Source of the DNA: Escherichia coli
GTDB lineage: Bacteria; Pseudomonadota; Gammaproteobacteria; Enterobacterales; Enterobacteriaceae
DNA length: 64,000 bases
Strand: one strand, 5' to 3'
Assembly (NCBI RefSeq): GCF_050920415.1
Contig: NZ_CP169309.1
The translations under genes were made by a program, and so were the position numbers. Below, one piece after another: positions 2,993 to 59,089 of this stretch. The notes below the pieces were generated by a model. The model did no database searches and was not told where the DNA came from. It saw only the letters and a program-made list of their open reading frames with translations. Positions within the stretch are counted from its first letter, which is position 1. Each line of letters begins with the position of its first letter.

Positions 2993-3294
2993 GAAAAGCT
3001 GAAGGGCGTCAACCGAAAAATGACCAATGATGGTGAGGAAAAATCAGGGAAGATGAAAAAAATTCATCTTAATTAGAGGTAATAAATAGATTTCTTTATA
3101 GCGCAATCAACCTCACTCGTTTTGACTGATATACAGGCAACACAACGGCACCTGTTTCTCATTCGAAAAACAACGCCCTGCCACCAGATGGTGATGCTAA
3201 AGCATCTGATTCGGCCTGCGCTCTCGTGTAGGCCGAATACAGAATCTGCGAAATCAACGGGTAACAAACAGCAGAGTCAACTCAGTGCGTACTT

Positions 3295-4850
3295 TTATTT
3301 AATATCTTTCACGCGCATACCGTTGATCTGTTCATCCGTGATGGTATTACCCGCTTTAAAGTAATCAACCACCGCGTGATAAACGTAATAACCGCCCGTC
3401 GTATTGCGCGCTTTACCCTCGGTAAACGCGGTAAAACCATCTCCACCATCAGCAAGGAAACTCTGAGTGGCAATGTGGTAAACCGTCGCATCTTCAATCG
3501 GTTTGCCATTCAAAGTCAGTGAGATAACCCGCTGACCAACCGGCTTGCTGCTGTCGTACTTCATTTCCAGGCCTTTCGATACCTGTAAAACGCCATTACT
3601 TAAACTTGCGCCGTGTTCCATCAAACTGCGTAATTGTTTACCCGTGAGATCCATCGTCACCAGTTCGTTGGGGAACGGGAAGGTACTGATGACGCCACCC
3701 ATCGTAATTGCACCCGCCGGGATCTCATTGCGAATCCCGCCAGAGTTGGTTAACGCCAACTGGGTATTTTTACCCGCCGCTGCCAGCAAAGCGTCCGCCG
3801 CCAGGTTCCCGAGGGAAGCCGATTCACCATAGGCACGTTTTAATTCAACCGGCGATTGCGCCACCGTTTGCTGACTTCATCCAGCTTTTTGTTCCAACTA
3901 TCAATCACCTGTTTCGTTTGCGGATCGGGCTTCCACTCATCGGCGTAAAGGGTTTTAAGCTCGAAGTTTTTCACCGTAAAAGTGTGCGGCTTCTCTTTGT
4001 AGTCGAGAACCAGTTTACCCACATCAATCCCGCCGCTGTCAGTGGAGAGGATTAACGTATTGCCGACTTTAATCGGTTCCGGCGTACCCACATGTGCATG
4101 CCCGGTGATCAAAATATCCAGCCCTTTCACCTGACTTGCCGTCTGAATATCTTTATCCAGCGCGCGACGCACATCTGTGCCTCCCATACTGGACTGGCGG
4201 GCCGGAACACCTTCGTGGATCAGGGCAACGGTCAAATCAACCTTGCCTTTGAGTTCATCGATATAACGTTGTAGCCATTTAATTTCATCACGCGCCTCAA
4301 TACCCACTCGCGTTGCCGCAGATACCGTATCATTAAAGGCAAATACACCGTGCAAACCAATCACGCCAATTTTCACGCCGTCTTTTTCAATGATGGTATA
4401 GGGCTTATCCCAGAATGATTTACTGCTGTTCTGATAAAAAACATTACCCTGCACAATCGGGAATTTTGCCTGACTCAGCTGTAATAACGTATTGTCCCAG
4501 CCGTGATCAAATTCATGATTACCTATAGTGACCGCATCGAACGGCATGGTATTCATAATATCGATAATCGCCTTGCCTTTAGTCAGGCTGCTGATATACG
4601 GCCCGGTAAAATAGTCACCCGCATCAAAAAACCAGGTCGCTTTGTTTTTAGCTTTTTCTTGTTTAACAAGCGTAGTGATATTTGCCCAGCCGCCAATATC
4701 TCGTTTACCGTCAGCAATCCACGGCACTTTATAAGGCTCTACATGTGCATGGAGGTCGTTGGTATAAATGATGGTGACATCTTTGGCGCAAGCCCAAAAC
4801 GGCAGTGTTAATGCGATACCCGCAGCAAGCATTTTAATTTTCATAAACAA
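3295..4850 (-). pseudogene. 5'-nucleotidase / metallophosphatase family paralog disrupted by a frameshift
   Basis: Two overlapping minus-strand ORFs in different frames (3840-4850, 336 aa; 3295-3864, 189 aa). Together they align end to end with the intact paralog at 7922-9547 (N-part ...[15 protein letters not shown]; C-part [19 protein letters not shown]...). The frame break is near 3850-3865. Metallophosphatase motifs DxH, GDxxxG and GNHE are present. Confidence 0.75.
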
Positions 4851-4893
4851 TCCCTTCCAGTGAGATAAAGGATTGCTACATTACGTTCTGAAA

Positions 4894-4909
4894 GGCTTTT
4901 TTATGTGAG
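4894..4909. promoter_or_regulatory. perfect-consensus CRP-type site TGTGA-N6-TCACA in a divergent promoter region
   Basis: Sequence tTGTGAgaatacTCACAt sits between the divergent starts at 4850 (minus) and 4977 (plus). Both half-sites match the CRP consensus exactly. Confidence 0.55.
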
Positions 4910-4976
4910 AATACTCACATCCAGAGGCGATAACTGTAGGACAAAATCAACGACCTTATGAAATCGTTGGTGATAT

Positions 4977-6104
4977 ATGTCAAATCTGTTTGCGATTAAT
5001 GTCTGTAAAACGTTCGGTTGTCGAAATTTGGGATTGGCCTCATCGGAAGATTACAGTTGGCCAGACTATAAACTGGGTTTTCCGGCACTACACTGCCAGG
5101 CATGCGGAAGTTACCCCCCTTTGTTTGATGAACAACAATTTCGTGACTGGTTGTCAGTTCACATGACTACGTGTGCCATAGAAACAGGGCATTTTTGTCC
5201 ATCATGCTATTGTAAAGAAAAGATTTTTTATGGCCACAACCCGCAGGGAACACAACGCGTTCAATGCCGTTCATGCAAAAAAGTCTGGACTCCGAAACAG
5301 CAGCCAGCAAGAGAAATTACGTATCCCCAGTCCATTGAAACCGTTCAACTGTTCATGCCCTTTCAAGGAGCCAGCGCACTACAAAAGCTCTATGTTTTAG
5401 TCAGTCTTGACGCCACTCGTGGCAACATCCTTCATCTCTCCACGAATTATACGCAACATCAGACAGGAGACAGTCTGCGGTACAGTTACAGAGGCAATAC
5501 AGAACCAACTGAGCACCATAGCGATATTGTGCAGAGGGTAGATATGCGTGAAGCGCAATTCTTGCGCCGGAGCCAGTTCGATGAAATTCAGTATGGCAGT
5601 GCTGTGCTCAAGCGCAATGGCAAGGGAGCCATACTACGCCCGGTTATCACGGCACACGGGCATTTCAGAATACTGAAAATCCGCTTTCCACATGTCAAAA
5701 CGCATATCATTTCACACGAATGTTTTCTGAGAGGCGCAATTATTACAGCCTGGGCAGATCAGTTCCGCCAACAACAAGGCGAACTTTGGTTCGTAGAAGA
5801 AGAAATCAGCGACCGTAACGCTGATATTCCCTGGCATTTTCAGGGAACGACATACCATGGTTGGTGGCAAAATCAGTGGCAACGCTGGGGGCAGGGGAAT
5901 AACAGCAAGATGGTCTGCCTGCTCACAGGAGTCTCCTTAGAAAGGGGCGCAAATGTTTCTCTGGCAACCAGTCGTTGCTTTATCACATGGCTGACAGACC
6001 AACACGACTTTACCCAAAGCGCGTTATTATCCGCAGGTCGCGTAACGAAAATGCTGACCTCACTGGCGTTAAAATACAATGAATCGCTCAATCCATCTTG
6101 TTAG
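4977..6104 (+). CDS. hypothetical cysteine-rich protein (multiple CxxC pairs, possible zinc-ribbon N-terminus); function unknown
   Basis: 375-aa ORF with no signal peptide. N-terminal 100 residues carry C10/C15, C40/C43, C74/C77/C79 and C97/C100 (HCQACGS..., CPSCYC..., CRSCKKVW). The C-terminal part is Trp-rich. I do not recognise the family. Confidence 0.65.
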   Translation: MSNLFAINVCKTFGCRNLGLASSEDYSWPDYKLGFPALHCQACGSYPPLFDEQQFRDWLSVHMTTCAIETGHFCPSCYCKEKIFYGHNPQGTQRVQCRSCKKVWTPKQQPAREITYPQSIETVQLFMPFQGASALQKLYVLVSLDATRGNILHLSTNYTQHQTGDSLRYSYRGNTEPTEHHSDIVQRVDMREAQFLRRSQFDEIQYGSAVLKRNGKGAILRPVITAHGHFRILKIRFPHVKTHIISHECFLRGAIITAWADQFRQQQGELWFVEEEISDRNADIPWHFQGTTYHGWWQNQWQRWGQGNNSKMVCLLTGVSLERGANVSLATSRCFITWLTDQHDFTQSALLSAGRVTKMLTSLALKYNESLNPSC

Positions 6105-6222
6105 TCAATACACTCGACAAACGACCATAAATTAATGGGATCACTATTTCTCATTTAATTAAATATATGAATGTATGACTGAAAAATATAATCACAGTCA
6201 ATGTTTAATTAATAACATTATT

Positions 6223-6238
6223 TGTTACTAAGATCACA
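6223..6238. promoter_or_regulatory. CRP-like site (TGTTA-N6-TCACA, one mismatch) upstream of the nucleotidase/tsx-like gene set
   Basis: tTGTTActaagaTCACAt lies about 95 bp upstream of the 6334 start in an AT-rich 229-bp leader. Confidence 0.3.
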
Positions 6239-6333
6239 TAATACTTTCCTGACCTATGCTTACATAAAAATAAGACACGGAGTTCCTTTTATTTAAATAA
6301 TTCAACCAATGTAACAACCCCTATCAAGGAGGG

Positions 6334-7887
6334 ATGATGAGAACTGTATTTACGACTTTATCAGTCATATTCAGCGTGATGTTTTCTCACAGTATACTAG
6401 CTCAGGACGTTACTATTTATTATACGAATGATATTCACGCACATGTCAATCCGGCAAAAATTCCCGCTGTTGATAAGAACAGACTTGTAGGTGGTATGGC
6501 TAATATCGCAGGCATCGTTAATGAAGCGAAGAAAAAAAACAAAGATGTCTTTTTCTTTGATGCAGGCGACTATTTTACCGGTCCGTATATCAGTACCCTG
6601 ACCAAAGGTGAAGCTATTATTGATATCATGAACACCATGCCCTTTGATGCGGTGTCCGTTGGTAATCACGAGTTCGATCACGGCGTGCCCAATATGGTAT
6701 CTCAGTTATCAAAAGCAAAATTCCCCATTCTGCTGGGAAATATTTACTACACCGATACAAATAAACCAGTTTGGGATCATCCGTGGACCATTATCGAAAA
6801 AGATGGTTTAAAGATTGGTGTGATTGGATTGCATGGTGCATTCGCTTTCTATGATACAGTCGCGGCAAAAGCACGTGAAGGCGTAGAAGCCAGAGACGAA
6901 ATTAAATATTTAAATAAAGCACTTGCAGAATTAAAAGGTAAAGTCGACATTACCGTTTTGCTAATTCACGAAGGTGTTCCGGCGCGTCAATCAAGCTTTG
7001 GTAGTAAAGATGTGGAGCGGCTACTACAGGCAGATATTGAGACAGCTAAAAAAGTGAATGGTGTTGATGTCTTAATTACCGGTCACGCACATGTCGGAAC
7101 ACCGCAACCAATAAAAGTTAATAACACATTAATTGTATCTACCGATGCATACGGCACCGACATCGGAAAACTTGTGCTTGATTACAATCCGAAAACAAAG
7201 AAAATTGATAGTTATAATGGTGAGTTAATCACCATCTTTGCAGATCAATTTAAACCTGACACCATCGTTCAAAATACTATCGATAAATGGAGCGTAAAAC
7301 TTAACAAAATAACACAGGAAGTTGTCGGCCATTCTCCCGTAGTTTTAACACGTGAGTATGGCAGTTCTTCTTCTACCGGTAACCTTATTCTGGATGCAAT
7401 GATGGAAAAAACACCTGATGCCATTGCCGGATTTCAAAATAGCGGTGGGATGCGAGCTGATTTTCCTAAAGGTGATATCACACTGGGAGATGTTATTAGC
7501 ACATTCCCCTTTAATAATGACCTCATCGAGATGGATTTGACGGGCCGCGATCTCAAATCGTTGATGACGCATGCAACCAATCTAACTAACGGTGTGTTAC
7601 AGGTTTCAAAAAGCGTTGCGGTTGTCTATGACAGCAAAAAACCACTCAACCAACGGTTAATCTCTTTCACCATTAACGGCAAACCCGTGGAAGATAATCA
7701 AACATATCGTATTGCCACGCACTCCTTTTGTGCCAGTGGTGGTGACGGTTTTGAAGCATTTTTGAATGGAAAAAATGTGAAGACGATACCGGGAACAACC
7801 TCGGCGGAATCAATCATCGATTATTTCAAAAATCATAAACCTGTCACCCCAGACTTAACTAAACGAGTCATGGACGTCGCCAAATAA
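6334..7887 (+). CDS. periplasmic bifunctional metallophosphatase / 5'-nucleotidase family protein (UshA-like)
   Basis: 517-aa ORF with a signal peptide (MMRTVFTTLSVIFSVMFSHSILA|QD), metallophosphatase motifs (TNDIHAH, FDAGDYFTG, GNHEFD) and a 5'-nucleotidase-type C-terminal domain. Strong Shine-Dalgarno (aaggaggg) precedes the start. Confidence 0.85.
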   Translation: MMRTVFTTLSVIFSVMFSHSILAQDVTIYYTNDIHAHVNPAKIPAVDKNRLVGGMANIAGIVNEAKKKNKDVFFFDAGDYFTGPYISTLTKGEAIIDIMNTMPFDAVSVGNHEFDHGVPNMVSQLSKAKFPILLGNIYYTDTNKPVWDHPWTIIEKDGLKIGVIGLHGAFAFYDTVAAKAREGVEARDEIKYLNKALAELKGKVDITVLLIHEGVPARQSSFGSKDVERLLQADIETAKKVNGVDVLITGHAHVGTPQPIKVNNTLIVSTDAYGTDIGKLVLDYNPKTKKIDSYNGELITIFADQFKPDTIVQNTIDKWSVKLNKITQEVVGHSPVVLTREYGSSSSTGNLILDAMMEKTPDAIAGFQNSGGMRADFPKGDITLGDVISTFPFNNDLIEMDLTGRDLKSLMTHATNLTNGVLQVSKSVAVVYDSKKPLNQRLISFTINGKPVEDNQTYRIATHSFCASGGDGFEAFLNGKNVKTIPGTTSAESIIDYFKNHKPVTPDLTKRVMDVAK

Positions 7888-7921
7888 AATATCATTTATC
7901 AGTCTATATATTTAACAAGGA

Positions 7922-9547
7922 ATGCGAATGAAAACAGTGCAGCGTACTTTACTTGCCGCAACATTGCTGACTATTTTTTCGGTCTCAGTCATGGCGCAGG
8001 ATGGCACGATTATTTATACAAATGATCTTCACACTCATGTGGATTCTTATAAAGTGCCGTATATCGCAGACGGAAAACGCGACATTGGCGGCTTTGCCAA
8101 TATATCTACTTTAGTAAAACAAGAGAAAGCGAAAAATAAAGCCACCTTTTATTTTGATGCTGGAGACTATTTCACCGGCCCTTATATCAGCAGTCTGACA
8201 AAGGGCGAAGCAATAATTGACATTATGAATACCATGCCTTTTGACGCAGTATCAATCGGCAATCATGAGTTTGACCATGGCTGGGATAATGCCCTGCGAC
8301 AATTAAGCAAAGCGAATTTTCCTGTTTTATTGGGCAATGTTTATCATAAAGAGAGTGAGAAACCCTTCTGGAACAAGCCCTACACCATCCTGGAAAAAGA
8401 TGGCATCAAGATTGGTATTATTGGGCTACACGGCGTATTTGCATTTAATGATACGGTCTCGGAGCTCTCTCTCCAGGGACTCGATAATGACAATAATAAC
8501 CGCTTTGATAAATCTTCCGAGACCCTTAAGAATCAGGGGATTGAAGCACGTGATGAAGTGAAGTATTTGCAGCATTATATCGACGAGTTACGTGATAAGG
8601 TTGACCTCACTGTGGCGCTGGTTCATGAAGGCGTTCCGGCGCGTCAGTCCAGCATTGGCAATACAGATGTTAGACGCGCTCTTGATAAAGATATTCAAAC
8701 CGCTAGCAAGGTGAAAGGATTGGATATTCTGATTACCGGGCATGCCCACGTCGGAACGCCAGAACCAATCAAAGTCGGCAACACCTTAATCCTTTCGACT
8801 GATAGTGGCGGTATCGATATTGGTAAATTAGTCCTTGATGTCAACCCTACAGCTCGTACCCATAAAATGAAGAGCTTTGAGCTGAAAACAGTTTATGCCG
8901 ATGAATGGATACCCGATCCAACGACACAAAAAGTTATCAATGGCTGGAATAAAAAACTGGCGGATATTGTACGCCAACCAGTGGGTGAATCATCGATTGT
9001 ATTAACTCGCGCCTATGGTGAGTCATCGCAACTAGGCAACCTGTTTACCGATGCAATGCTTGTCGCTGCTCCGACTGCACAGATTGCATTGATAAACTCC
9101 GGCAGCTTACGTGCGGATATAAATGCAGGCACGATTACCTTTGGCGACATTACCAGTACATTCCCCTTCAAGAATGAACTTACTGAAATGGATCTCAGCG
9201 GTAAGGATCTGCGTAACCTACTGGAACACGGGGCATCGCTTACCAATGGCATCCTGCAAATGTCAAAAGGCGCAGAAATGCGCTATACCCCGCAGAAACC
9301 AGTAGGTCAGCGCATAGTATCTTTTAAAATTAATGGTGAAGAGATCGTTGATACGAATATTTACCATGTTGCAACAACGACTTTCCTTGCACTGGGGGGC
9401 GATGGTTTTCTGGCATTCAAAGAAGGGAAAAATGTTCAGGTCCGCGCCAGAAATAACATGTCCGATGTCGTGATCGATTATTTGAAGAAAGGCCACAAGA
9501 TTACGCCTGCACAGGTAAATGAAATGCGGGTGGACGTTAGCAAATAA
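7922..9547 (+). CDS. periplasmic bifunctional metallophosphatase / 5'-nucleotidase family protein, second paralog
   Basis: 541-aa ORF with a signal peptide (…VSVMA|QDG) and the same motif set. It is about 80% identical by eye to the frameshifted copy at 3295-4850 and carries an extra low-complexity insert (LQGLDNDNNNRFDKSSETLKNQ). Confidence 0.85.
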   Translation: MRMKTVQRTLLAATLLTIFSVSVMAQDGTIIYTNDLHTHVDSYKVPYIADGKRDIGGFANISTLVKQEKAKNKATFYFDAGDYFTGPYISSLTKGEAIIDIMNTMPFDAVSIGNHEFDHGWDNALRQLSKANFPVLLGNVYHKESEKPFWNKPYTILEKDGIKIGIIGLHGVFAFNDTVSELSLQGLDNDNNNRFDKSSETLKNQGIEARDEVKYLQHYIDELRDKVDLTVALVHEGVPARQSSIGNTDVRRALDKDIQTASKVKGLDILITGHAHVGTPEPIKVGNTLILSTDSGGIDIGKLVLDVNPTARTHKMKSFELKTVYADEWIPDPTTQKVINGWNKKLADIVRQPVGESSIVLTRAYGESSQLGNLFTDAMLVAAPTAQIALINSGSLRADINAGTITFGDITSTFPFKNELTEMDLSGKDLRNLLEHGASLTNGILQMSKGAEMRYTPQKPVGQRIVSFKINGEEIVDTNIYHVATTTFLALGGDGFLAFKEGKNVQVRARNNMSDVVIDYLKKGHKITPAQVNEMRVDVSK

Positions 9548-9557
9548 TAAAAAATTA

Positions 9558-9592
9558 TAATGCCATTCATTCACTGAATGGCATTATTTTTC
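9558..9592 (+). terminator. rho-independent terminator-like hairpin after the second nucleotidase gene
   Basis: Inverted repeat aatgccattca / tgaatggcatt with loop ttcac, followed by a T-run (tattttt). Confidence 0.55.
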
Positions 9593-9624
9593 TCTAAATC
9601 AACAATAAATAATGAGATATATTT

Positions 9625-10485
9625 ATGTGTATAAAAAAGCACGGGATAGCTTTATCGATTCTATTAATACCTTGCATTGGAAACGCTCAGGAAATTAAAA
9701 GTGAGGAAGGCTGGTTACATCAAAGCTTGAATGTCATTGGTCGCACAGACTCTCGCTTTGGCCCAAGGCTGACTAACGACCTCTACCCTGAATATACTGT
9801 AGCAGGAAGAAAAGACTGGTTTGATTTTTATGGTTATGTTGATCTACCAAAATTCTTTGGCGTCGGCAGTCACTATGATGTTGGGATCTGGGATGAGGGC
9901 TCACCACTATTTACGGAAATAGAACCTCGGTTTTCCATTGACAAATTGACCGGATTAAATCTTGCGTTCGGCCCTTTTAAAGAATGGTTCATTGCAAACA
10001 ACTATGTCTATGATATGGGTGACAACCAGTCATCCCGGCAAAGTACATGGTATATGGGGCTTGGTACAGATATCGACACGGGTCTACCAATTAAGCTTTC
10101 TGCCAATATATACACCAAGTATCAGTGGCAAAACTATGGTGCCGCTAATGAAAATGAATGGGACGGATATCGATTCAAAATAAAATATAGCATTCCTCTT
10201 ACCCATTTATTCGGAGGGCGATTGGTATACAATAGTTTTACTAACTTTGATTTTGGCTCCGATCTTGCGGACAAATCACACAATAATAAACGAACCAGTA
10301 ATGCTATTGCTTCAAGCCATATCCTTTCCCTGCTATATGAACACTGGAAATTTGCATTTACACTACGTTATTTTCACAACGGTGGACAATGGAATGCTGG
10401 GGAGAAAGTTAACTTCGGAGATGGTCCATTTGAATTAAAAAACACAGGATGGGGAACCTATACTACTATTGGTTATCAATTTTAA
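9625..10485 (+). CDS. Tsx-family outer-membrane nucleoside-specific channel paralog
   Basis: 286-aa ORF with a signal peptide (…IGNA|QE). It shares long blocks with E. coli Tsx as I remember it ([90 protein letters not shown]) and ends in an aromatic residue. Confidence 0.85.
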
Positions 10486-10630
10486 ATCAGGTGATGTTTT
10501 AGATATTTTTACTTAATGCCATTTTGTAATTGTCATAAATAACTTCACCATTCACACTGTGAATTCATCGCTCAACACAAAAGCCCCTTATTACCGGGGC
10601 ACTGACCAAAGGCAAAATGACAATCAATCA

Positions 10631-10688
10631 CCACCTCCGCAGGAGGTGGTTTAGAGGTGACAACAAAAGCTGGCAACTGCCAGCTTTT
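10631..10688. terminator. two adjacent hairpins forming a probable bidirectional terminator between the tsx-like gene and metL
   Basis: ccacctccgcaggaggtgg (10631-10649) and aaaagctggcaactgccagctttt (10665-10688). On the minus strand the second is a GC stem followed by a T-run immediately after the metL stop. Confidence 0.55.
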
Positions 10689-10700
10689 GTTCAATAATCA

Positions 10701-13133
10701 CTACAACAACTGCGCCAGACGGTTAATATCCGACTGAATCGCCCCGGCGGTGACGTCGCGCCCTGCACCTGGCCCGCGGATCACCAGCGGGTTGTCGCGA
10801 TACCAGCGGCTTTCGATGGCAAAGACGTTATCGCACGGTAGTAGTGATGCCAGCGGATGGTCTTCTCGCACCGCTTCCACGCCTACTCGCGCTTTGCCGT
10901 TGGCATCGAAACGCGCCACGTAGCGCAACACCAGCCCCATTTCACGGGCCGCTTCCAACCGTTGTACCATCTGCTCATTAAGTTCATCGCCATTTTCAAA
11001 GAAATGGTCGATGCTTCCACCTTCGCAATGGGTTGGCACCAGTGATTCAACACGCACCTGGTCCGGTTCAATGTTGTAACCCGCTTCACGCGCCAGAATC
11101 ACCAGCTTGCGCATCACGTCTTTGCCGGAGAGGTCATCACGCGGGTCAGGTTCAGTTAAGCCCTGCTGCCACGCCTGATCCACCAGCTCGGTAAACGGCA
11201 CGCTACCGTCGAATTGCAGGAACAGCCAGGAGAGTGTGCCGGAGAAGATCCCGCTGATCGACAAAATAGTGTCGCCGCTGTCGATCAGATCGCGCACGGT
11301 ATGGTTGATCGGCAAACCTGCGCCGACGGTGGCGTTGTATAGCCAGTGACGCCCGGTTTTTTCGAACGCGTCGTGGATCTGGCGATATTTATTGCTGTCG
11401 CTCGCTCCCGCCAGTTTGTTGGCACTGATGACGTGGAAACCGTGGCTGGCGAAATCGAGGTATTGATCGGCCAGTTGCTGACTGGCGGTAACGTCCAGCA
11501 CCACTAAATCATCATACGGATGGGCACGCATCCACAGGAACAGCGACTCTTCATCCTGTTCGACGGCTTCATCATTAAAGAAGGCTAGCGCACGGCTGGC
11601 GTCCAGCCCGTCATAGCTCAACAGGCTGCGACGGCTGTCCACCACGCCTGCCAGCACAAATTCAAAGCCGGTGCGCGCCGAGAGCGTGCTCTGCTCACGG
11701 GCGAACAGTTCCAGCCAGCGGGAACCGATATTGCCCTTACCGAACAATACCAGGCCGATGCGTTTTTCTGCGCGGAAGACGGACTGATGCAGCCCCTGAA
11801 TCAGGCTTTCGGTCGGCCCGGTGCGCAGTACTGCCACCAGGCTGATGCCGTCATCGGACTGCCAGGTAAACTCGACCGGCTGGCCTTTCAGTTGCTGCCA
11901 GAAGCGGTGGCAATGCAGCGGGTTACGGGTGACGCCCGCCCCAACCATCGCCACCAGCGCCAGCCCCTGACGCAGGCGCAGTTCGCCAGGTAATCCTGCT
12001 TCGTCGAGGATTTTCAGCGCACTGTCGGCCACTTCCGAGGTGTAGCAAAATTGCAGCAACTGGCGATCGTTATGCACGCCAACCGCCAGTGGGCGCACCT
12101 GAGCACGTTTCAGGATTTGGTCGATCTCTTTATGCGCCAGTTTGAAATCCTGACTGGCGGGCACCTGAAACTCAATCAAACAGACATCATCGTGGCTGGT
12201 GACAATACGCGCGCCCGTACCGGAAGCCAGCACGCGTTCAATGCGCGTGGAACCTTGATCCGGTGTATAGCTACAGCGCAGCTGCAGGTCGATTTCACTG
12301 CCAGAAACTGGCTGTAAAGTACGCGCGTGCAACACTGGCGCGGCAAGACGCGCCAGTTCGCTGGCTTCATCAAGACGCAGCAATGGCAGCAGACAGGCAT
12401 CTTTCACTTTACGCGGGTCGGCGCTATATACCCCGGCGACGTCACTCCAGATGGTTACGCGGGAAACTCCCGCCAGCGCACCGATTTGTGTCGCGGAATA
12501 GTCGGAACCGTTACGCCCCAGCAGCACCGTTTCACCGGCGTTGTTACGGCTGATAAACCCGGTCACCACCAGACGTTTGCCCGGATGTTGTACCAGTAGC
12601 TGTTGCAGCAACGGGTAAGAAAGCCCTTCATCAACCTGCGGCTGCGCGGCGCGTTCAGCGCGTAAAAACTCGCGGGCATCAAGCCAGGCCGCTGGCAATC
12701 CTTGTTGATTAAGTACCGCAGACATCAGGCGCGCCGACCACACTTCACCGTGGCCCACCACTTCCGCATACACCGCATCGTTAATACCGCTGTCGAGCAG
12801 CGCCGCCAGGCGTTCCAGATCGCTGACAAAAGCGCTAATGAGGCTATCGGCTTCTTCAGCGGGTAGCAGGCCGCTAATCAGATCGCACTGATAACGACGT
12901 AGCGTTTGTTGAACCTGATGCGCAGAGAGACGATCGGTCTGGCTTAGTTTCAACCAGTTAATCAACTGGTTAGTGGTGCTACCGGCGGCGGAAACCACCA
13001 TCATATCGTCAGGCTGAGAGTACTCCGCCATAATGCCCGCGACACGCAAATAACACTTCACATCAGCCAGACTACTGCCACCAAATTTATGCAGTTGACG
13101 ACCTTTCGCCCCTGCCTGCGCAATCACACTCAT
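10701..13133 (-). CDS. metL: bifunctional aspartokinase II / homoserine dehydrogenase II
   Basis: 810-aa ORF MSVIAQAGAKGRQLHKFGGSSLADVKCYLRVAGIMAEYS... recognised as MetL. Confidence 0.96.
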   Translation of the reverse strand: MSVIAQAGAKGRQLHKFGGSSLADVKCYLRVAGIMAEYSQPDDMMVVSAAGSTTNQLINWLKLSQTDRLSAHQVQQTLRRYQCDLISGLLPAEEADSLISAFVSDLERLAALLDSGINDAVYAEVVGHGEVWSARLMSAVLNQQGLPAAWLDAREFLRAERAAQPQVDEGLSYPLLQQLLVQHPGKRLVVTGFISRNNAGETVLLGRNGSDYSATQIGALAGVSRVTIWSDVAGVYSADPRKVKDACLLPLLRLDEASELARLAAPVLHARTLQPVSGSEIDLQLRCSYTPDQGSTRIERVLASGTGARIVTSHDDVCLIEFQVPASQDFKLAHKEIDQILKRAQVRPLAVGVHNDRQLLQFCYTSEVADSALKILDEAGLPGELRLRQGLALVAMVGAGVTRNPLHCHRFWQQLKGQPVEFTWQSDDGISLVAVLRTGPTESLIQGLHQSVFRAEKRIGLVLFGKGNIGSRWLELFAREQSTLSARTGFEFVLAGVVDSRRSLLSYDGLDASRALAFFNDEAVEQDEESLFLWMRAHPYDDLVVLDVTASQQLADQYLDFASHGFHVISANKLAGASDSNKYRQIHDAFEKTGRHWLYNATVGAGLPINHTVRDLIDSGDTILSISGIFSGTLSWLFLQFDGSVPFTELVDQAWQQGLTEPDPRDDLSGKDVMRKLVILAREAGYNIEPDQVRVESLVPTHCEGGSIDHFFENGDELNEQMVQRLEAAREMGLVLRYVARFDANGKARVGVEAVREDHPLASLLPCDNVFAIESRWYRDNPLVIRGPGAGRDVTAGAIQSDINRLAQLL

Positions 13134-20544: not shown

Positions 20545-21075
20545 GTGACAACTATAGTAAGCGTACGCCGTAACGGCCATGTGGTCATCGCTGGTGATGG
20601 TCAGGCCACGTTGGGCAATACCGTAATGAAAGGTAACGTGAAAAAGGTCCGCCGTCTGTACAACGACAAAGTCATCGCGGGCTTTGCGGGCGGTACTGCG
20701 GATGCTTTTACGCTGTTCGAACTGTTTGAACGTAAACTGGAAATGCATCAGGGCCATCTGGTCAAAGCCGCCGTTGAGCTGGCAAAAGACTGGCGTACCG
20801 ATCGCATGTTACGCAAACTTGAAGCACTGCTGGCAGTCGCGGATGAAACTGCATCGCTTATCATCACCGGTAACGGTGACGTGGTGCAGCCAGAAAACGA
20901 TCTTATTGCTATCGGCTCCGGCGGCCCTTACGCCCAGGCTGCGGCGCGCGCGCTGTTAGAAAACACTGAATTGAGTGCTCGTGAAATTGCTGAAAAGGCG
21001 TTGGATATTGCAGGCGACATTTGCATCTATACCAACCATTTCCACACCATCGAAGAATTAAGCTACAAAGCGTAA
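20545..21075 (+). CDS. hslV: ATP-dependent protease subunit HslV
   Basis: 176-aa [38 protein letters not shown]... recognised as HslV. Confidence 0.97.
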
Positions 21076-21084
21076 GGATCTCCC

Positions 21085-22416
21085 ATGTCTGAAATGACCC
21101 CACGCGAAATCGTCAGCGAACTGGATAAACACATCATCGGCCAGGATAACGCCAAGCGTTCCGTGGCGATTGCACTGCGTAACCGCTGGCGTCGCATGCA
21201 GCTTAACGAAGAGCTGCGCCATGAAGTGACCCCGAAAAATATCCTGATGATCGGCCCGACCGGTGTCGGTAAAACTGAAATCGCTCGTCGTCTGGCTAAG
21301 CTGGCGAATGCGCCGTTCATCAAAGTTGAAGCGACCAAATTCACCGAAGTGGGCTATGTAGGTAAGGAAGTGGATTCTATTATCCGCGATCTGACCGATG
21401 CCGCCGTGAAAATGGTACGCGTCCAGGCTATTGAGAAAAACCGGTATCGCGCTGAAGAACTGGCAGAAGAACGTATTCTCGACGTGCTGATCCCACCGGC
21501 TAAAAACAACTGGGGACAGACCGAACAACAGCAGGAACCGTCCGCTGCTCGTCAGGCATTCCGCAAAAAACTGCGTGAAGGCCAGCTCGATGACAAAGAA
21601 ATCGAGATCGATCTTGCCGCAGCACCGATGGGCGTTGAAATTATGGCGCCTCCGGGAATGGAAGAGATGACCAGCCAGCTGCAGTCCATGTTCCAGAACC
21701 TGGGTGGTCAGAAACAAAAAGCGCGTAAGCTGAAAATCAAAGACGCCATGAAGCTGCTGATTGAAGAAGAAGCGGCGAAACTGGTGAATCCGGAAGAGCT
21801 GAAGCAAGACGCTATCGACGCCGTTGAACAGCACGGGATCGTATTTATCGACGAAATCGACAAAATCTGTAAGCGCGGCGAGTCTTCCGGTCCGGATGTT
21901 TCTCGTGAAGGCGTTCAGCGTGACCTGCTGCCGCTGGTAGAAGGTTGCACCGTTTCCACCAAACACGGGATGGTCAAAACTGACCACATTCTGTTTATCG
22001 CTTCTGGCGCGTTCCAGATTGCGAAACCGTCTGACCTGATCCCGGAACTGCAAGGTCGTCTGCCAATCCGCGTTGAACTGCAGGCACTGACCACCAGCGA
22101 CTTCGAGCGTATTCTGACCGAACCGAATGCCTCTATCACCGTGCAGTACAAAGCATTGATGGCGACTGAAGGCGTAAATATCGAGTTCACCGACTCCGGT
22201 ATTAAGCGGATCGCGGAAGCAGCATGGCAGGTGAACGAATCTACCGAAAACATCGGTGCTCGTCGTTTACATACTGTTCTGGAGCGTTTAATGGAAGAGA
22301 TTTCCTACGACGCCAGCGATTTAAGCGGTCAAACCATCACTATTGACGCAGATTATGTGAGCAAACATCTGGATGCGTTGGTGGCAGATGAAGATCTGAG
22401 CCGTTTTATCCTATAA
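21085..22416 (+). CDS. hslU: ATP-dependent protease ATPase subunit HslU
   Basis: 443-aa [42 protein letters not shown]... with Walker A GPTGVGKT. Confidence 0.97.
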
Positions 22417-58255: not shown

Positions 58256-59089
58256 TTAATTACTCAAACGCTGCGGATGGGTATAAACCGTTGCCCGACC
58301 CGGCTTACAAAAGCCCACCAGCGTCAAATTACAGCGCTCAGCCACTTCTACGGCAAGCGTGGTCGCGGCAGACACCGCAAACAAAATTTCTACGCCGCAC
58401 ATCGCTGACTTTTGCACCATTTCATAACTGGCACGACTGGAAACCAGCACCGCACCTTGCTGCCAGCTTTCCCCTTCTTGTGACCGGCGGCCTAACAGTT
58501 TATCCAGCGCCACATGGCGACCCACGTCTTCATGCCCGCCTACCAGTTCGCCAGATGGCAACATCCAGGCAGCGGCGTGAGTACAACCAGTCAGTTGCCC
58601 CACTGGCTGGAAATCATTGAGATGGCGTAATGCATCATCCAGTTTGTTGAGATCAAATGTCTGAGTGAACGGCAGCGGCTGCACCGGTTTACCGATGTCA
58701 TTAAGTTGCTCCACGCCGCACACGCCACATCCCGTACGTCCCGCCAGTGCCCGACGACGCTCCTTCAACCCCATAAAGCGGCGGCTGGAAAGCTCAATTT
58801 GCACTTCCAGACCATTACAGGAAGGAACGACATCCATACCGAAGATATCGCGCGGACTTTCGATAATCCCCTCGGAAAGCGAAAAACCGAGCGCAAAGTA
58901 TTCAAGGTCTTTGGGCGACGCCATCATCACCACATGCGAAATGCCGTTGTAGACCAGCGCAACGGGAACCTCTTCCGCCACCTCATCTAACCGTGGGTGT
59001 TGTAAATCGTCACGCCGCCATAACTCAATTTGACGAACACCTGTGACATTTGTCACATTTTTGATTTCTTTTTGCTGTGTTTTTTTCAC
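58256..59089 (-). CDS. fdhD: formate dehydrogenase sulfurtransferase / accessory protein FdhD
   Basis: 277-aa [52 protein letters not shown]... recognised as FdhD. Confidence 0.95.

What the first reader, a model, noticed from the sequence alone, without database searches (positions are those of the whole stretch)
9625..10485. Second Tsx-family channel genetically linked to periplasmic nucleotidases
The ORF shares long identical blocks with canonical Tsx but is clearly a distinct paralog with divergent loop regions, and it sits directly downstream of two nucleotidase genes. Tsx is also the receptor for phage T6 and colicin K, so a paralog with altered surface loops could change phage or colicin susceptibility as well as nucleoside uptake specificity.
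Basis: partly seen in the sequence, partly recalled or inferred. Interest (0 to 1): 0.5.

Follow-up and report, generated by a model that had tools for sequence, protein, structure and literature searches.

The report
Second Tsx channel beside nucleotidase genes
This is a real, intact second copy of the E. coli outer-membrane nucleoside channel Tsx, sitting next to three periplasmic nucleotidase genes in an accessory island found in about 12% of E. coli genomes; it is already annotated and described in print, but its function has never been tested.

Summary
Window 9625-10485 (+) is an intact 286-aa Tsx-family gene. It scores 490 bits on NCBIfam NF011686 (cutoff 311), is about 60% identical to K-12 Tsx, and its AlphaFold model matches PDB 1TLW at TM 0.93. 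It is a deep paralog, not a relocated tsx.

It ends a 7.6-kb low-GC island between metF and metL. The island holds three paralogous signal-peptide nucleotidases, one of them frameshifted here, and a transposase-fold protein.

The island occurs in 660 of 5426 complete E. coli genomes, including CFT073, UTI89 and SMS-3-5, and at the same locus in Citrobacter enshiensis. It is under purifying selection (dN/dS 0.05-0.14).

All five Tsx residues whose mutation blocks nucleoside uptake are conserved. The phage T6 receptor determinants are changed: a 5-residue deletion in loop 5, and N254P.

A different Tsx paralog sits inside homologous nucleotidase clusters in Enterobacter, Citrobacter and E. albertii. 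A CRP-type palindrome is conserved in 38 of 39 such loci.

Most likely this is a catabolite-controlled nucleotide and nucleoside scavenging module.

It is not new. RefSeq annotates the gene, PLoS One 2026 (PMC12928451) describes the cluster with the same idea, and CFT073 RNA-seq lists it as c4894. Function remains untested. Interest is low to moderate.

The parts
9625..10485 (+). tsx2: intact 286-aa Tsx-family outer-membrane channel paralog (CFT073 c4894 / C_RS23130; WP_000275563.1 is the 98%-identical B2 allele)
9625..9687 (+). Predicted Sec signal peptide ([21 protein letters not shown] | QE). Not a lipobox, because Pro sits at -1 of the Cys.
   Evidence: Read from the sequence. Residues 1-25 have pLDDT <50 in the model. 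Aligns with the K-12 Tsx signal peptide.
9557..9587 (+). Perfect 13-bp hairpin followed by UUUUUCUCU, between nt5-C and tsx2. Terminator- or attenuator-like. The stem is kept in C. enshiensis despite sequence changes.
   Evidence: centroid -18.4 kcal/mol for the 86-nt stretch, z -4.3
7922..9547 (+). nt5-C: metallophosphatase/5'-nucleotidase paralog with a signal peptide and a 20-aa insertion (the RefSeq start corresponds to 7928)
6334..7887 (+). nt5-B: metallophosphatase/5'-nucleotidase paralog with a signal peptide (the RefSeq start corresponds to 6337)
6223..6238 (+). CRP-like site TGTTACTAAGATCACA (1 mismatch) upstream of nt5-B. The right half-site is conserved in C. enshiensis.
6200..6219 (+). 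Palindromic block AATGTTTAATTAATAACATT, conserved between E. coli and C. enshiensis. Candidate operator; the binding protein is unknown.
4977..6104 (+). 375-aa cytoplasmic protein with two CxxC zinc ribbons and an RNase-H/DDE-transposase-like fold. Always paired divergently with an nt5-A-type gene. No invariant DDE triad.
4904..4919 (+). Perfect CRP-type palindrome TGTGAGAATACTCACA, centred about 66 bp from both divergent start codons
   Evidence: present at a near-fixed position in 38 of 39 related loci; the spacer varies
3295..4844 (-). nt5-A: third nucleotidase paralog, a pseudogene in this strain (4-bp deletion near 3874 truncates it at 336 aa). The intact CFT073 protein is the PDB 3IVD/3IVE chain.
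3067..10701 (.). Extent of the variable metF-metL island. Homology to island-free E. coli such as K-12 ends at 3066 and resumes at 10702.
10583..10690 (.). Cluster of GC-rich hairpins between tsx2 and the convergent metL, including the terminator-like AAAAGCUGGCAACUGCCAGCUUUU

Best explanation
Tsx2 is a functional outer-membrane nucleoside channel of the Tsx family. It belongs to an accessory, catabolite-controlled module for scavenging extracellular nucleotides and nucleosides.

Proposed working, all inferred. Nucleoside phosphates reach the periplasm through general porins, and free nucleosides enter through Tsx2 as well as canonical Tsx. The two or three Sec-exported nucleotidases (nt5-A, nt5-B, nt5-C) remove phosphate in the periplasm. 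The pooled nucleosides are then taken up by the core inner-membrane transporters NupC and NupG (established E. coli physiology). Expression is probably CRP-dependent, and the AT-rich DNA is probably silenced under standard conditions.

The surface loops differ from K-12 Tsx at the known T6 determinants, so Tsx2 probably offers nucleoside entry that T6-type phages do not recognise.

Shown here: gene integrity, fold, conserved transport residues, purifying selection, recurrent linkage, conserved CRP-type site. Shown in the literature: inducible transcription.

Inferred: substrate, direction of flow, the regulator, and phage blindness.
For: Family and fold: NF011686 at 490 bits; 1TLW at E 5e-114; AF2 model pLDDT 88 with TM 0.93 to 1TLW; terminal Phe and a signal peptide.

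Transport residues: F27, G28, S217, G239 and G240 are all conserved (residue list from PMC6499177). A shortened loop 5 also occurs in the Salmonella Tsx cluster P0014.

Selection: dN/dS is 0.14 (F versus B2 allele) and 0.05 (E. coli versus C. enshiensis). Island dS of 1.0-1.6 is similar to that of the flanking metL and metF, at 1.0-1.2.

Linkage: tsx2 follows nt5-B and nt5-C on the same strand. The same island sits at the same locus in C. enshiensis. A different Tsx paralog, 57-60% identical to Tsx2, is embedded in homologous nucleotidase clusters in Enterobacter asburiae, E. hormaechei, Citrobacter freundii, other Citrobacter spp. and E. albertii.

Nucleotidases: the metal-binding motifs (DxH, GD, GNHEFD, HEG, GHAH) are intact in all paralogs. 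nt5-A equals the PDB 3IVD/3IVE 'Nucleotidase' chain.

Regulation: a perfect CRP-type palindrome lies at 4904-4919 and is conserved in 38 of 39 loci with a variable spacer. A second CRP-like site lies upstream of nt5-B.

Expression: c4894 (C_RS23130, which is tsx2) rose 3.3 log2-fold on tosR overexpression in CFT073 (PMC5956150).
Against: No uptake, conductance or enzyme assay exists for any gene of the island.

Periplasmic nucleotidases do not strictly need a nucleoside channel, since their products are made inside the outer membrane. The logic of the coupling is therefore incomplete.

A strong hairpin separates tsx2 from nt5-C. In the TosR data only c4894, and none of c4895-c4898, appears in the paper or its held supplements. 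tsx2 may therefore be a separate transcription unit.

No CRP, CytR or DeoR site was found directly upstream of tsx2.

The conserved palindrome could be bound by the transposase-like protein rather than by CRP.

Fifteen alignment positions, 14 in the mature protein, are conserved in at least 85% of other Tsx sequences but changed in Tsx2. They are mostly in the N-terminus and strands b1, b2 and b11, so specificity may differ.

RefSeq flags the F-type allele as a pseudogene, and nt5-A is dead in this strain.
Confidence: 0.6

Rival explanations
1. Substrate-delivery channel. Tsx2, and the Tsx' paralog of the second cluster type, admit phosphorylated or bulky nucleotide derivatives that pass general porins poorly, such as NMPs, NAD, dinucleotides or nucleotide sugars. 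They feed these to the dedicated periplasmic nucleotidases, by analogy with OmpP2 and NadN in Haemophilus NAD uptake.
For: A Tsx gene is repeatedly embedded in, or appended to, operons of this nucleotidase subfamily. In the second cluster type it even overlaps the next nucleotidase gene. This makes more sense if the channel supplies the enzymes' substrate. Mature Tsx2 is less acidic than K-12 Tsx, at net -6 versus -12. Several changes at family-conserved positions remove negative or add positive charge: S22R, H228K, E40T, D11G. The nucleotidases hit the NadN model at E 1e-35.
Against: All five residues tied to nucleoside transport are conserved. The model superposes on the narrow Tsx barrel at 1.6-1.8 A. 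Whether the charge changes face the lumen could not be checked because no coordinates were available. No biochemical data exist.
Confidence: 0.15
2. Surface-variant back-up. The main selective value of tsx2 is antigenic and receptor diversity. It keeps nucleoside uptake going when canonical tsx is lost or repressed under pressure from T6-like phages, colicin K or albicidin, or it serves as a receptor for other phages. On this view its linkage to nucleotidases is incidental.
For: Both T6 determinant regions are altered: a loop 5 deletion with D198K and G200H, and N254P. Extracellular loops are the least conserved class, at 55%. Between the two cluster types the periplasmic enzymes stay 85-93% identical while the Tsx component is only 57-58% identical. 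Faster divergence of the exposed component is the pattern expected under surface-directed selection.
Against: Canonical tsx is retained in essentially every genome that carries tsx2. Within the Tsx2 lineage the loops are well conserved (84% E. coli versus C. enshiensis) and dN/dS is low, so there is no sign of ongoing diversifying selection. The linkage with nucleotidases recurs independently, which argues against coincidence.
Confidence: 0.15
3. Decaying remnant. In this strain the island is eroding and tsx2 is non-functional or silent.
For: RefSeq marks the gene 'incomplete; missing C-terminus' in both F-type genomes inspected. nt5-A carries a frameshift in this strain. A terminator-like hairpin sits immediately upstream of tsx2. 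About two thirds of E. coli genomes lack the island altogether.
Against: The ORF is full length and colinear with the CFT073 protein and with K-12 Tsx up to the terminal Phe. The RefSeq flag therefore looks like an annotation artefact. dN/dS of 0.05-0.14 shows constraint. The CFT073 allele is transcribed and inducible.
Confidence: 0.08

Closest known systems
Tsx of E. coli K-12 (nucleoside-specific channel; receptor for phage T6 and colicin K; PDB 1TLW/1TLY/1TLZ)
   Same: Same family model, with the same predicted 12-strand barrel, signal peptide and C-terminal Phe. Residues F27, G28, S217, G239 and G240 are conserved. Long identical blocks occur in strands b3-b8 and loop L4.
   Different: Only 60-62% identical, which is further from K-12 Tsx than any ortholog sampled across Enterobacterales. 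Different locus (metF-metL island versus yajI-tsx-yajD). Loop 5 is 5 residues shorter, and N254P, N252D and N256E occur in loop 6. The N-terminal segment and strands b1, b2 and b11 are remodelled. Net charge is -6 versus -12. No CytR or DeoR promoter architecture was recognised upstream.
Tsx' paralog of Enterobacter hormaechei and Citrobacter freundii (clusters P0077/P0087) in hyp-nt5-nt5-Tsx'-nt5-radical-SAM clusters
   Same: A Tsx-family channel (NF011686 at 433 bits) tied to the same nucleotidase subfamily and the same transposase-like protein, with the same CRP-type palindrome.
   Different: Only 57-60% identical to Tsx2, and placed between nucleotidase genes rather than after them. It has a different chromosomal location and is followed by a radical SAM/SPASM gene that the window lacks. 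It was not found in complete E. coli genomes.
UshA and CpdB, the core periplasmic nucleotidases of E. coli, and NadN of Haemophilus
   Same: Two-domain metallophosphatase plus 5'-nucleotidase C-terminal architecture, signal peptides, and conserved metal-binding motifs.
   Different: The island enzymes fall below every NCBIfam equivalog cutoff. They are reported to be about 27% identical to B. subtilis YfkN (PMC12928451). They occur as three paralogs that are 56-57% identical to each other. Their substrates are unknown.
GR 31 (metL..metF) of APEC BEN2908, as described in PLoS One 2026 (PMC12928451)
   Same: The same cluster: one ORF 67% identical to Tsx and three UshA-like ORFs, shared by B2 ExPEC and AIEC reference strains. 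The authors suggest a coordinated nucleoside processing and transport system.
   Different: That paper is descriptive only. It does not report the T6-determinant changes, the selection analysis, the C. enshiensis synteny, the short hyp-nt5A form, the second cluster type or the CRP-type site.

Membership tests
Tsx family (Pfam PF03502 Channel_Tsx; NCBIfam NF011686) | Sequence match above the curated family threshold over the full length | tested here: met
   NF011686 at 489.9 bits against a cutoff of 311, covering residues 2-286. PF03502 is precomputed for all homologs.
Tsx family | Monomeric 12-stranded beta-barrel like PDB 1TLW | tested here: met
   AF2 model pLDDT 88.3 with 12 strands. Foldseek to 1tlw_A gives E 1e-32, TM 0.93 and rmsd 1.6 A. 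This is a prediction, not an experiment.
Tsx family | Outer-membrane targeting signals: a cleavable Sec signal peptide and a C-terminal aromatic beta-signal | tested here: met
   N-terminal [21 protein letters not shown]|QE and the C-terminal ...GYQF, read from the sequence. No signal-peptide predictor was available.
Tsx family | Residues whose mutation impairs nucleoside transport in K-12 Tsx (F27, G28, S217, G239, G240) | tested here: met
   All five are identical in Tsx2, in the CFT073 allele and in C. enshiensis. The residue list comes from PMC6499177, which cites Fsihi 1993 and Ye & van den Berg 2004.
Tsx family | Residues lining the Nuc0, Nuc1 and Nuc2 binding sites in the crystal structure | not tested
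   The structure paper (EMBO J 2004) is not in the held library, and no coordinates were available.
Tsx family | Nucleoside-specific permeation | not testable with these tools
   Needs uptake or bilayer experiments.
Canonical tsx ortholog (the E. coli K-12 gene) | Orthologous position (yajI-tsx-yajD) and ortholog-level identity | tested here: not met
   Located between nt5-C and metL. It is 60% identical, whereas orthologs in the order are 67-92% identical to K-12 Tsx. Canonical tsx is present elsewhere in the same genomes.
Canonical tsx ortholog | Phage T6 receptor determinants (residues 198-207; N249, N254) | tested here: not met
   AINGI is deleted, with D198K and G200H. N254P, N252D and N256E are present. 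N249 is kept.
Canonical tsx ortholog | CRP/CytR- and DeoR-controlled promoters | tested here: inconclusive
   CRP-type sites were found at the two island promoters, but none directly upstream of tsx2. CytR and DeoR sites were looked for only by eye.
UshA/5'-nucleotidase superfamily (PF00149 + PF02872) for the linked enzymes | Two-domain architecture with conserved metal-ligand motifs | tested here: met
   Pfam domains are recorded. The motifs are invariant in alignment A6. nt5-A is identical to the PDB 3IVD chain. None of the three reaches an NCBIfam equivalog cutoff.

The most novel reading that the evidence does not exclude
The cassette 'transposase-fold protein + several paralogous periplasmic nucleotidases + a Tsx-type barrel' is a dedicated porin-enzyme system. 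In it, the Tsx paralog is specialised to admit a nucleotide-type substrate (NMP, NAD, dinucleotide or nucleotide sugar) for the linked enzymes. The exposed channel component has diverged much more than the periplasmic enzymes between cluster types, possibly under phage or colicin pressure.
Probability: 0.15. Interest if true: 0.55.

Novelty: already known. Interest (0 to 1): 0.3.

Why it matters
If Tsx2 works as proposed, B2 and F lineage E. coli have an extra nucleoside entry route and extra periplasmic nucleotidases. These lineages include the model uropathogens CFT073 and UTI89. Such a route could help growth on host-derived nucleotides in urine, blood or inflamed gut.

It could also matter for phage therapy and for Tsx-dependent antibiotics such as albicidin. 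A second, loop-divergent Tsx could preserve nucleoside uptake in tsx-null escape mutants, or it could serve as a receptor for other phages.

In practice, transcriptome and proteome papers that report 'tsx' in ExPEC may be referring to this paralog. The TosR study did so (c4894).

The gene is already annotated and the idea is already in print, so what is missing is experiments rather than discovery.

Tried and rejected
1. 'Relocated canonical tsx' is rejected. Identity is 60%, the locus is different, and canonical tsx is also present.

2. 'Pseudogene', as flagged by RefSeq in SMS-3-5 and MFDS1022581, is rejected for the coding sequence. Alignment with SMS-3-5 shows a single substitution inside the gene. 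The ORF is colinear with the intact CFT073 protein to the last residue. Why PGAP trims the last 15 nt remains unexplained.

3. 'Recent horizontal acquisition', suggested by the 38-45% GC, is not supported. Synonymous divergence from the syntenic C. enshiensis island equals that of the flanking core genes. A short hyp-nt5A form occupies the same site in many Enterobacteriaceae.

4. I tried to read the Tsx structure paper to map the Nuc0-2 site residues, but it is not held.

5. Literature searches by CFT073 locus tags returned mostly noise. Only c4894 in the TosR paper was relevant.

6. I searched for the second-type Tsx' gene in complete E. coli genomes and found no match.

7. NCBIfam and Pfam on the 375-aa protein gave only weak IS1/InsA zinc-ribbon hits. 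Fold comparison was needed to see the transposase-like core.

8. I looked by eye for a second CRP site and for CytR or DeoR operators upstream of nt5-B. Only half-site or weak resemblances were present and they were not pursued.

9. A paper on E. coli feeding on DNA (PMC9273947) added nothing specific to this locus.
Full report
WHAT IS THERE

The window is E. coli chromosome, with metF, then an island, then metL-metB-metJ-yiiX-rpmE-priA. The finding's ORF, 9625-10485 on the + strand, is exactly as described: ATG start, 286 codons, one terminal stop.

[quoted passage not shown] It matches the solved Tsx structure 1TLW at E 5e-114 over the whole barrel. An AlphaFold2 model built from 67 homologs has mean pLDDT 88 and 12 strands.

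PARALOG, NOT A RELOCATED TSX

Identity to K-12 Tsx is 60-62%. Tsx orthologs sampled from across the order Enterobacterales are 67-92% identical to K-12 Tsx; these include Providencia, Edwardsiella, Dickeya and Erwinia. In a neighbour-joining tree, Tsx2 sits on a long separate branch (no bootstrap was run). Canonical tsx keeps its own locus, yajI-tsx-yajD.

A sensitive blastn search found a Tsx-like match in 5423 of 5426 complete E. coli genomes, with 6084 places in total. 660 genomes carry the paralog at 95% identity or more. Together these counts fit 'canonical tsx nearly everywhere, plus tsx2 in 660'. The genome identical to the window over the stretches compared, NZ_CP169399.1, has two places.

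Carriers include CFT073, UTI89, ATCC 25922, clone D i14, APEC strains and SMS-3-5. These are phylogroups B2 and F by my own knowledge of those strains. The window carries the F-type allele, which is 98% identical in protein to the CFT073 allele.

WHERE THE DIFFERENCES LIE

I used the model's strand map to classify positions. Identity to K-12 Tsx by structural class:
- Strands: 67%.
- Periplasmic turns: 74%.
- Extracellular loops: 55%.
- Mature N-terminal segment: 11%.

Strands b1, b2 and b11 are as divergent as any loop, at 36-46%.

The five positions whose mutation impairs nucleoside uptake in K-12 Tsx are F27, G28, S217, G239 and G240. The list comes from PMC6499177, citing Fsihi 1993 and Ye & van den Berg 2004. 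All five are conserved in Tsx2.

The two regions implicated in phage T6 reception are changed (same source):
- Residues 198-207 lose AINGI and carry D198K and G200H.
- In loop 6, N254 becomes Pro, N252 becomes Asp and N256 becomes Glu, while N249 is kept.

A shortened loop 5 also occurs in the Salmonella Tsx cluster P0014. A shorter loop is therefore not peculiar to Tsx2. My recollection that Salmonella Tsx is a working nucleoside channel comes from Nieweg & Bremer 1997 and was not checked here.

Fifteen alignment positions are conserved in at least 85% of other family members but changed in both E. coli and C. enshiensis Tsx2. One of the fifteen is in the signal peptide, leaving fourteen in the mature protein. 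They cluster in the N-terminus and in strands b1, b2 and b11. Several reduce negative charge: S22R, H228K, E40T and D11G. The mature net charge is -6, against -12 for K-12 Tsx. I could not determine which of these face the lumen.

THE ISLAND

Homology to island-free E. coli such as K-12 stops at window 3066 and resumes at 10702. The variable segment is therefore about 7.6 kb. Its GC content falls to 38-45%, against about 50-59% in the flanks.

Contents, in order:
- nt5-A, 3295-4844 on the minus strand.
- A 375-aa cytoplasmic protein, 4977-6104.
- nt5-B, 6334-7887.
- nt5-C, 7922-9547.
- tsx2, 9625-10485.

The three nucleotidases are 56-57% identical to each other. All carry signal peptides and all keep the metal-ligand motifs. 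None reaches an NCBIfam equivalog cutoff.

In this strain nt5-A has a 4-bp deletion near 3874 and is truncated at 336 aa. The intact CFT073 nt5-A is 100% identical to the chain of PDB 3IVD/3IVE, 'Nucleotidase'. From memory only, those entries are a structural-genomics 'putative 5'-nucleotidase c4898' with uridine or cytidine bound. I could not verify this.

AGE AND SELECTION

Citrobacter enshiensis carries the same island at the same metF-metL site, with Tsx2 at 85% identity. Synonymous divergence of the island genes between the two species is 0.95-1.9. For the flanking metL and metF it is about 1.0-1.2. dN/dS is 0.03-0.06 for the enzymes and Tsx2 between species, and 0.14 for tsx2 between the F and B2 alleles. 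The low GC content therefore does not indicate a recent import, and the genes are under constraint.

A shorter form, metF | nt5-A | hyp | metL, occupies the site in about 1180 further E. coli genomes. That figure is the 1844 genomes with nt5-A plus hyp minus the 660 with tsx2. The short form also occurs in many Citrobacter, Kosakonia, Klebsiella, Phytobacter and Kluyvera species.

THE NUCLEOTIDASE-TSX LINKAGE RECURS

A scan of one genome per species with the nucleotidase alignment, followed by tblastn mapping, found a second cluster type. Its order is hyp | nt5-A' | nt5-B' (one or two copies) | Tsx' | nt5-C' | radical-SAM/SPASM enzyme. It occurs in Enterobacter asburiae, E. albertii, several Citrobacter and one record labelled E. 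coli. It also occurs in E. hormaechei and C. freundii.

In this cluster type the enzymes are 85-93% (nt5-A', nt5-C') or about 70% (nt5-B') identical to the window's enzymes. The Tsx' is only 57-60% identical to Tsx2 and sits in a different position. A Tsx-type barrel has therefore been joined to this enzyme set at least twice, or has been replaced. This is the best evidence for functional coupling. It also shows the exposed component diverging faster than the periplasmic ones.

REGULATION AND EXPRESSION

A perfect CRP-type palindrome, TGTGAGAATACTCACA, lies at 4904-4919, midway between the divergent nt5-A and hyp starts. The whole 64-kb window has only two perfect matches and six matches at one mismatch or fewer, against 1.9 expected by chance.

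In 38 of 39 related loci from many genera, a palindrome with at most one mismatch lies at a near-fixed position. The half-sites are kept while the spacer varies. A one-mismatch site at 6223-6238 and a conserved palindrome at 6200-6219 lie upstream of nt5-B. This pattern fits CRP control, but the binding protein has not been shown.

Between nt5-C and tsx2 there is a perfect 13-bp hairpin followed by a U-run. The centroid energy is -18.4 kcal/mol for the 86-nt stretch, with z = -4.3. The stem survives sequence change in C. enshiensis. tsx2 may therefore be attenuated or separately transcribed.

In CFT073 RNA-seq, 'tsx, C_RS23130, c4894' rose 3.3 log2-fold on tosR overexpression. Tags c4895-c4898 appear nowhere in that paper or its held supplements (PMC5956150). 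C_RS23130 is the paralog next to metL, not canonical tsx.

WHAT IT MOST LIKELY DOES

The best reading (confidence 0.6) is a functional nucleoside channel within a catabolite-controlled nucleotide and nucleoside scavenging module. Nucleotides enter through porins, and nucleosides enter through Tsx2 and Tsx. The periplasmic nucleotidases dephosphorylate the nucleotides, and the core Nup transporters take up the products.

The substrate, the direction of flow, the regulator and insensitivity to T6 are all inferences.

Rivals:
- A channel specialised for phosphorylated or bulky nucleotide substrates that feeds the enzymes (0.15).
- Mainly a surface-variant back-up under phage or colicin pressure (0.15).
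- A decaying remnant in this strain (0.08).

The RefSeq flag 'incomplete, missing C-terminus' on the F-type allele is not borne out by the sequence.

NOVELTY

RefSeq annotates the gene as Tsx. PLoS One 2026 (PMC12928451) describes 'GR 31, metL..metF' in BEN2908 and other B2 strains. It reports one ORF 67% identical to Tsx plus three UshA-like ORFs, and proposes a coordinated nucleoside degradation and transport system. The finding is therefore already known at the descriptive level and experimentally uncharacterised.

- The altered T6 determinants alongside conserved transport residues.
- Evidence that the island is old and under constraint.
- The short form of the island.
- The second cluster type with a different Tsx paralog.
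- The transposase-like fold of the partner protein.
- The conserved CRP-type site.

Noticed in passing
window 3295-4844 (-), lesion near 3874: nt5-A, whose intact CFT073 version is the PDB 3IVD/3IVE protein, carries a 4-bp deletion in this strain and is truncated at 336 aa. It loses the C-terminal substrate-binding domain.
   Followed up: yes
[not shown]
   Followed up: partly
L010 13158-14246; L087 10612-11760; also L008, L009, L012, L019: In the second cluster type, a radical SAM/SPASM gene resembling anaerobic sulfatase maturase follows the last nucleotidase gene in all six loci that hold that gene (TIGR03942 at 258 bits, below the cutoff of 349). What it would mature is unclear. It is absent from the window's island.
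   Followed up: partly
L001 12001-12846 and L002 12001-12846 (equivalent to window 9625-10470): RefSeq/PGAP marks the F-type tsx2 allele as a pseudogene ('incomplete; missing C-terminus') and trims the last 15 nt. The ORF is nevertheless full length and ends GYQF-stop like the B2 allele, which is annotated as intact. The cause of the flag is unexplained.
   Followed up: partly
L083 (NZ_CP143395.1) 4499-7315; About 1180 further complete E. coli genomes carry a short form of the island: nt5-A plus the transposase-like gene only, with its 3' end overlapping metL. Between the forms nt5-A is about 97% identical in protein but the partner protein only about 73%, which suggests a recombination breakpoint between the two genes.
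   Followed up: partly
L007 8001-8849 (protein P0004): Yet another Tsx paralog, 282 aa and 66-68% identical to both Tsx and Tsx2, lies between sprT/endA and a sugar MFS transporter/metK in an unidentified enterobacterial assembly. Tsx paralogy is evidently common in the family.
   Followed up: no
L006 11292-12275: The C. enshiensis island has one extra 327-aa ORF between tsx2 and metL, with no NCBIfam hit. It is absent from E. coli.
   Followed up: no
window 59042-59057: This is the second perfect CRP-consensus palindrome in the window (TGTGACATTTGTCACA). Its context was not examined.
   Followed up: no
window 20764-21789 by homology (L002 coordinates): cytR, the repressor of canonical tsx and the nucleoside catabolism regulon, lies about 10 kb from tsx2, after priA. 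This is the normal K-12 gene order, so the proximity is probably coincidental.
   Followed up: no
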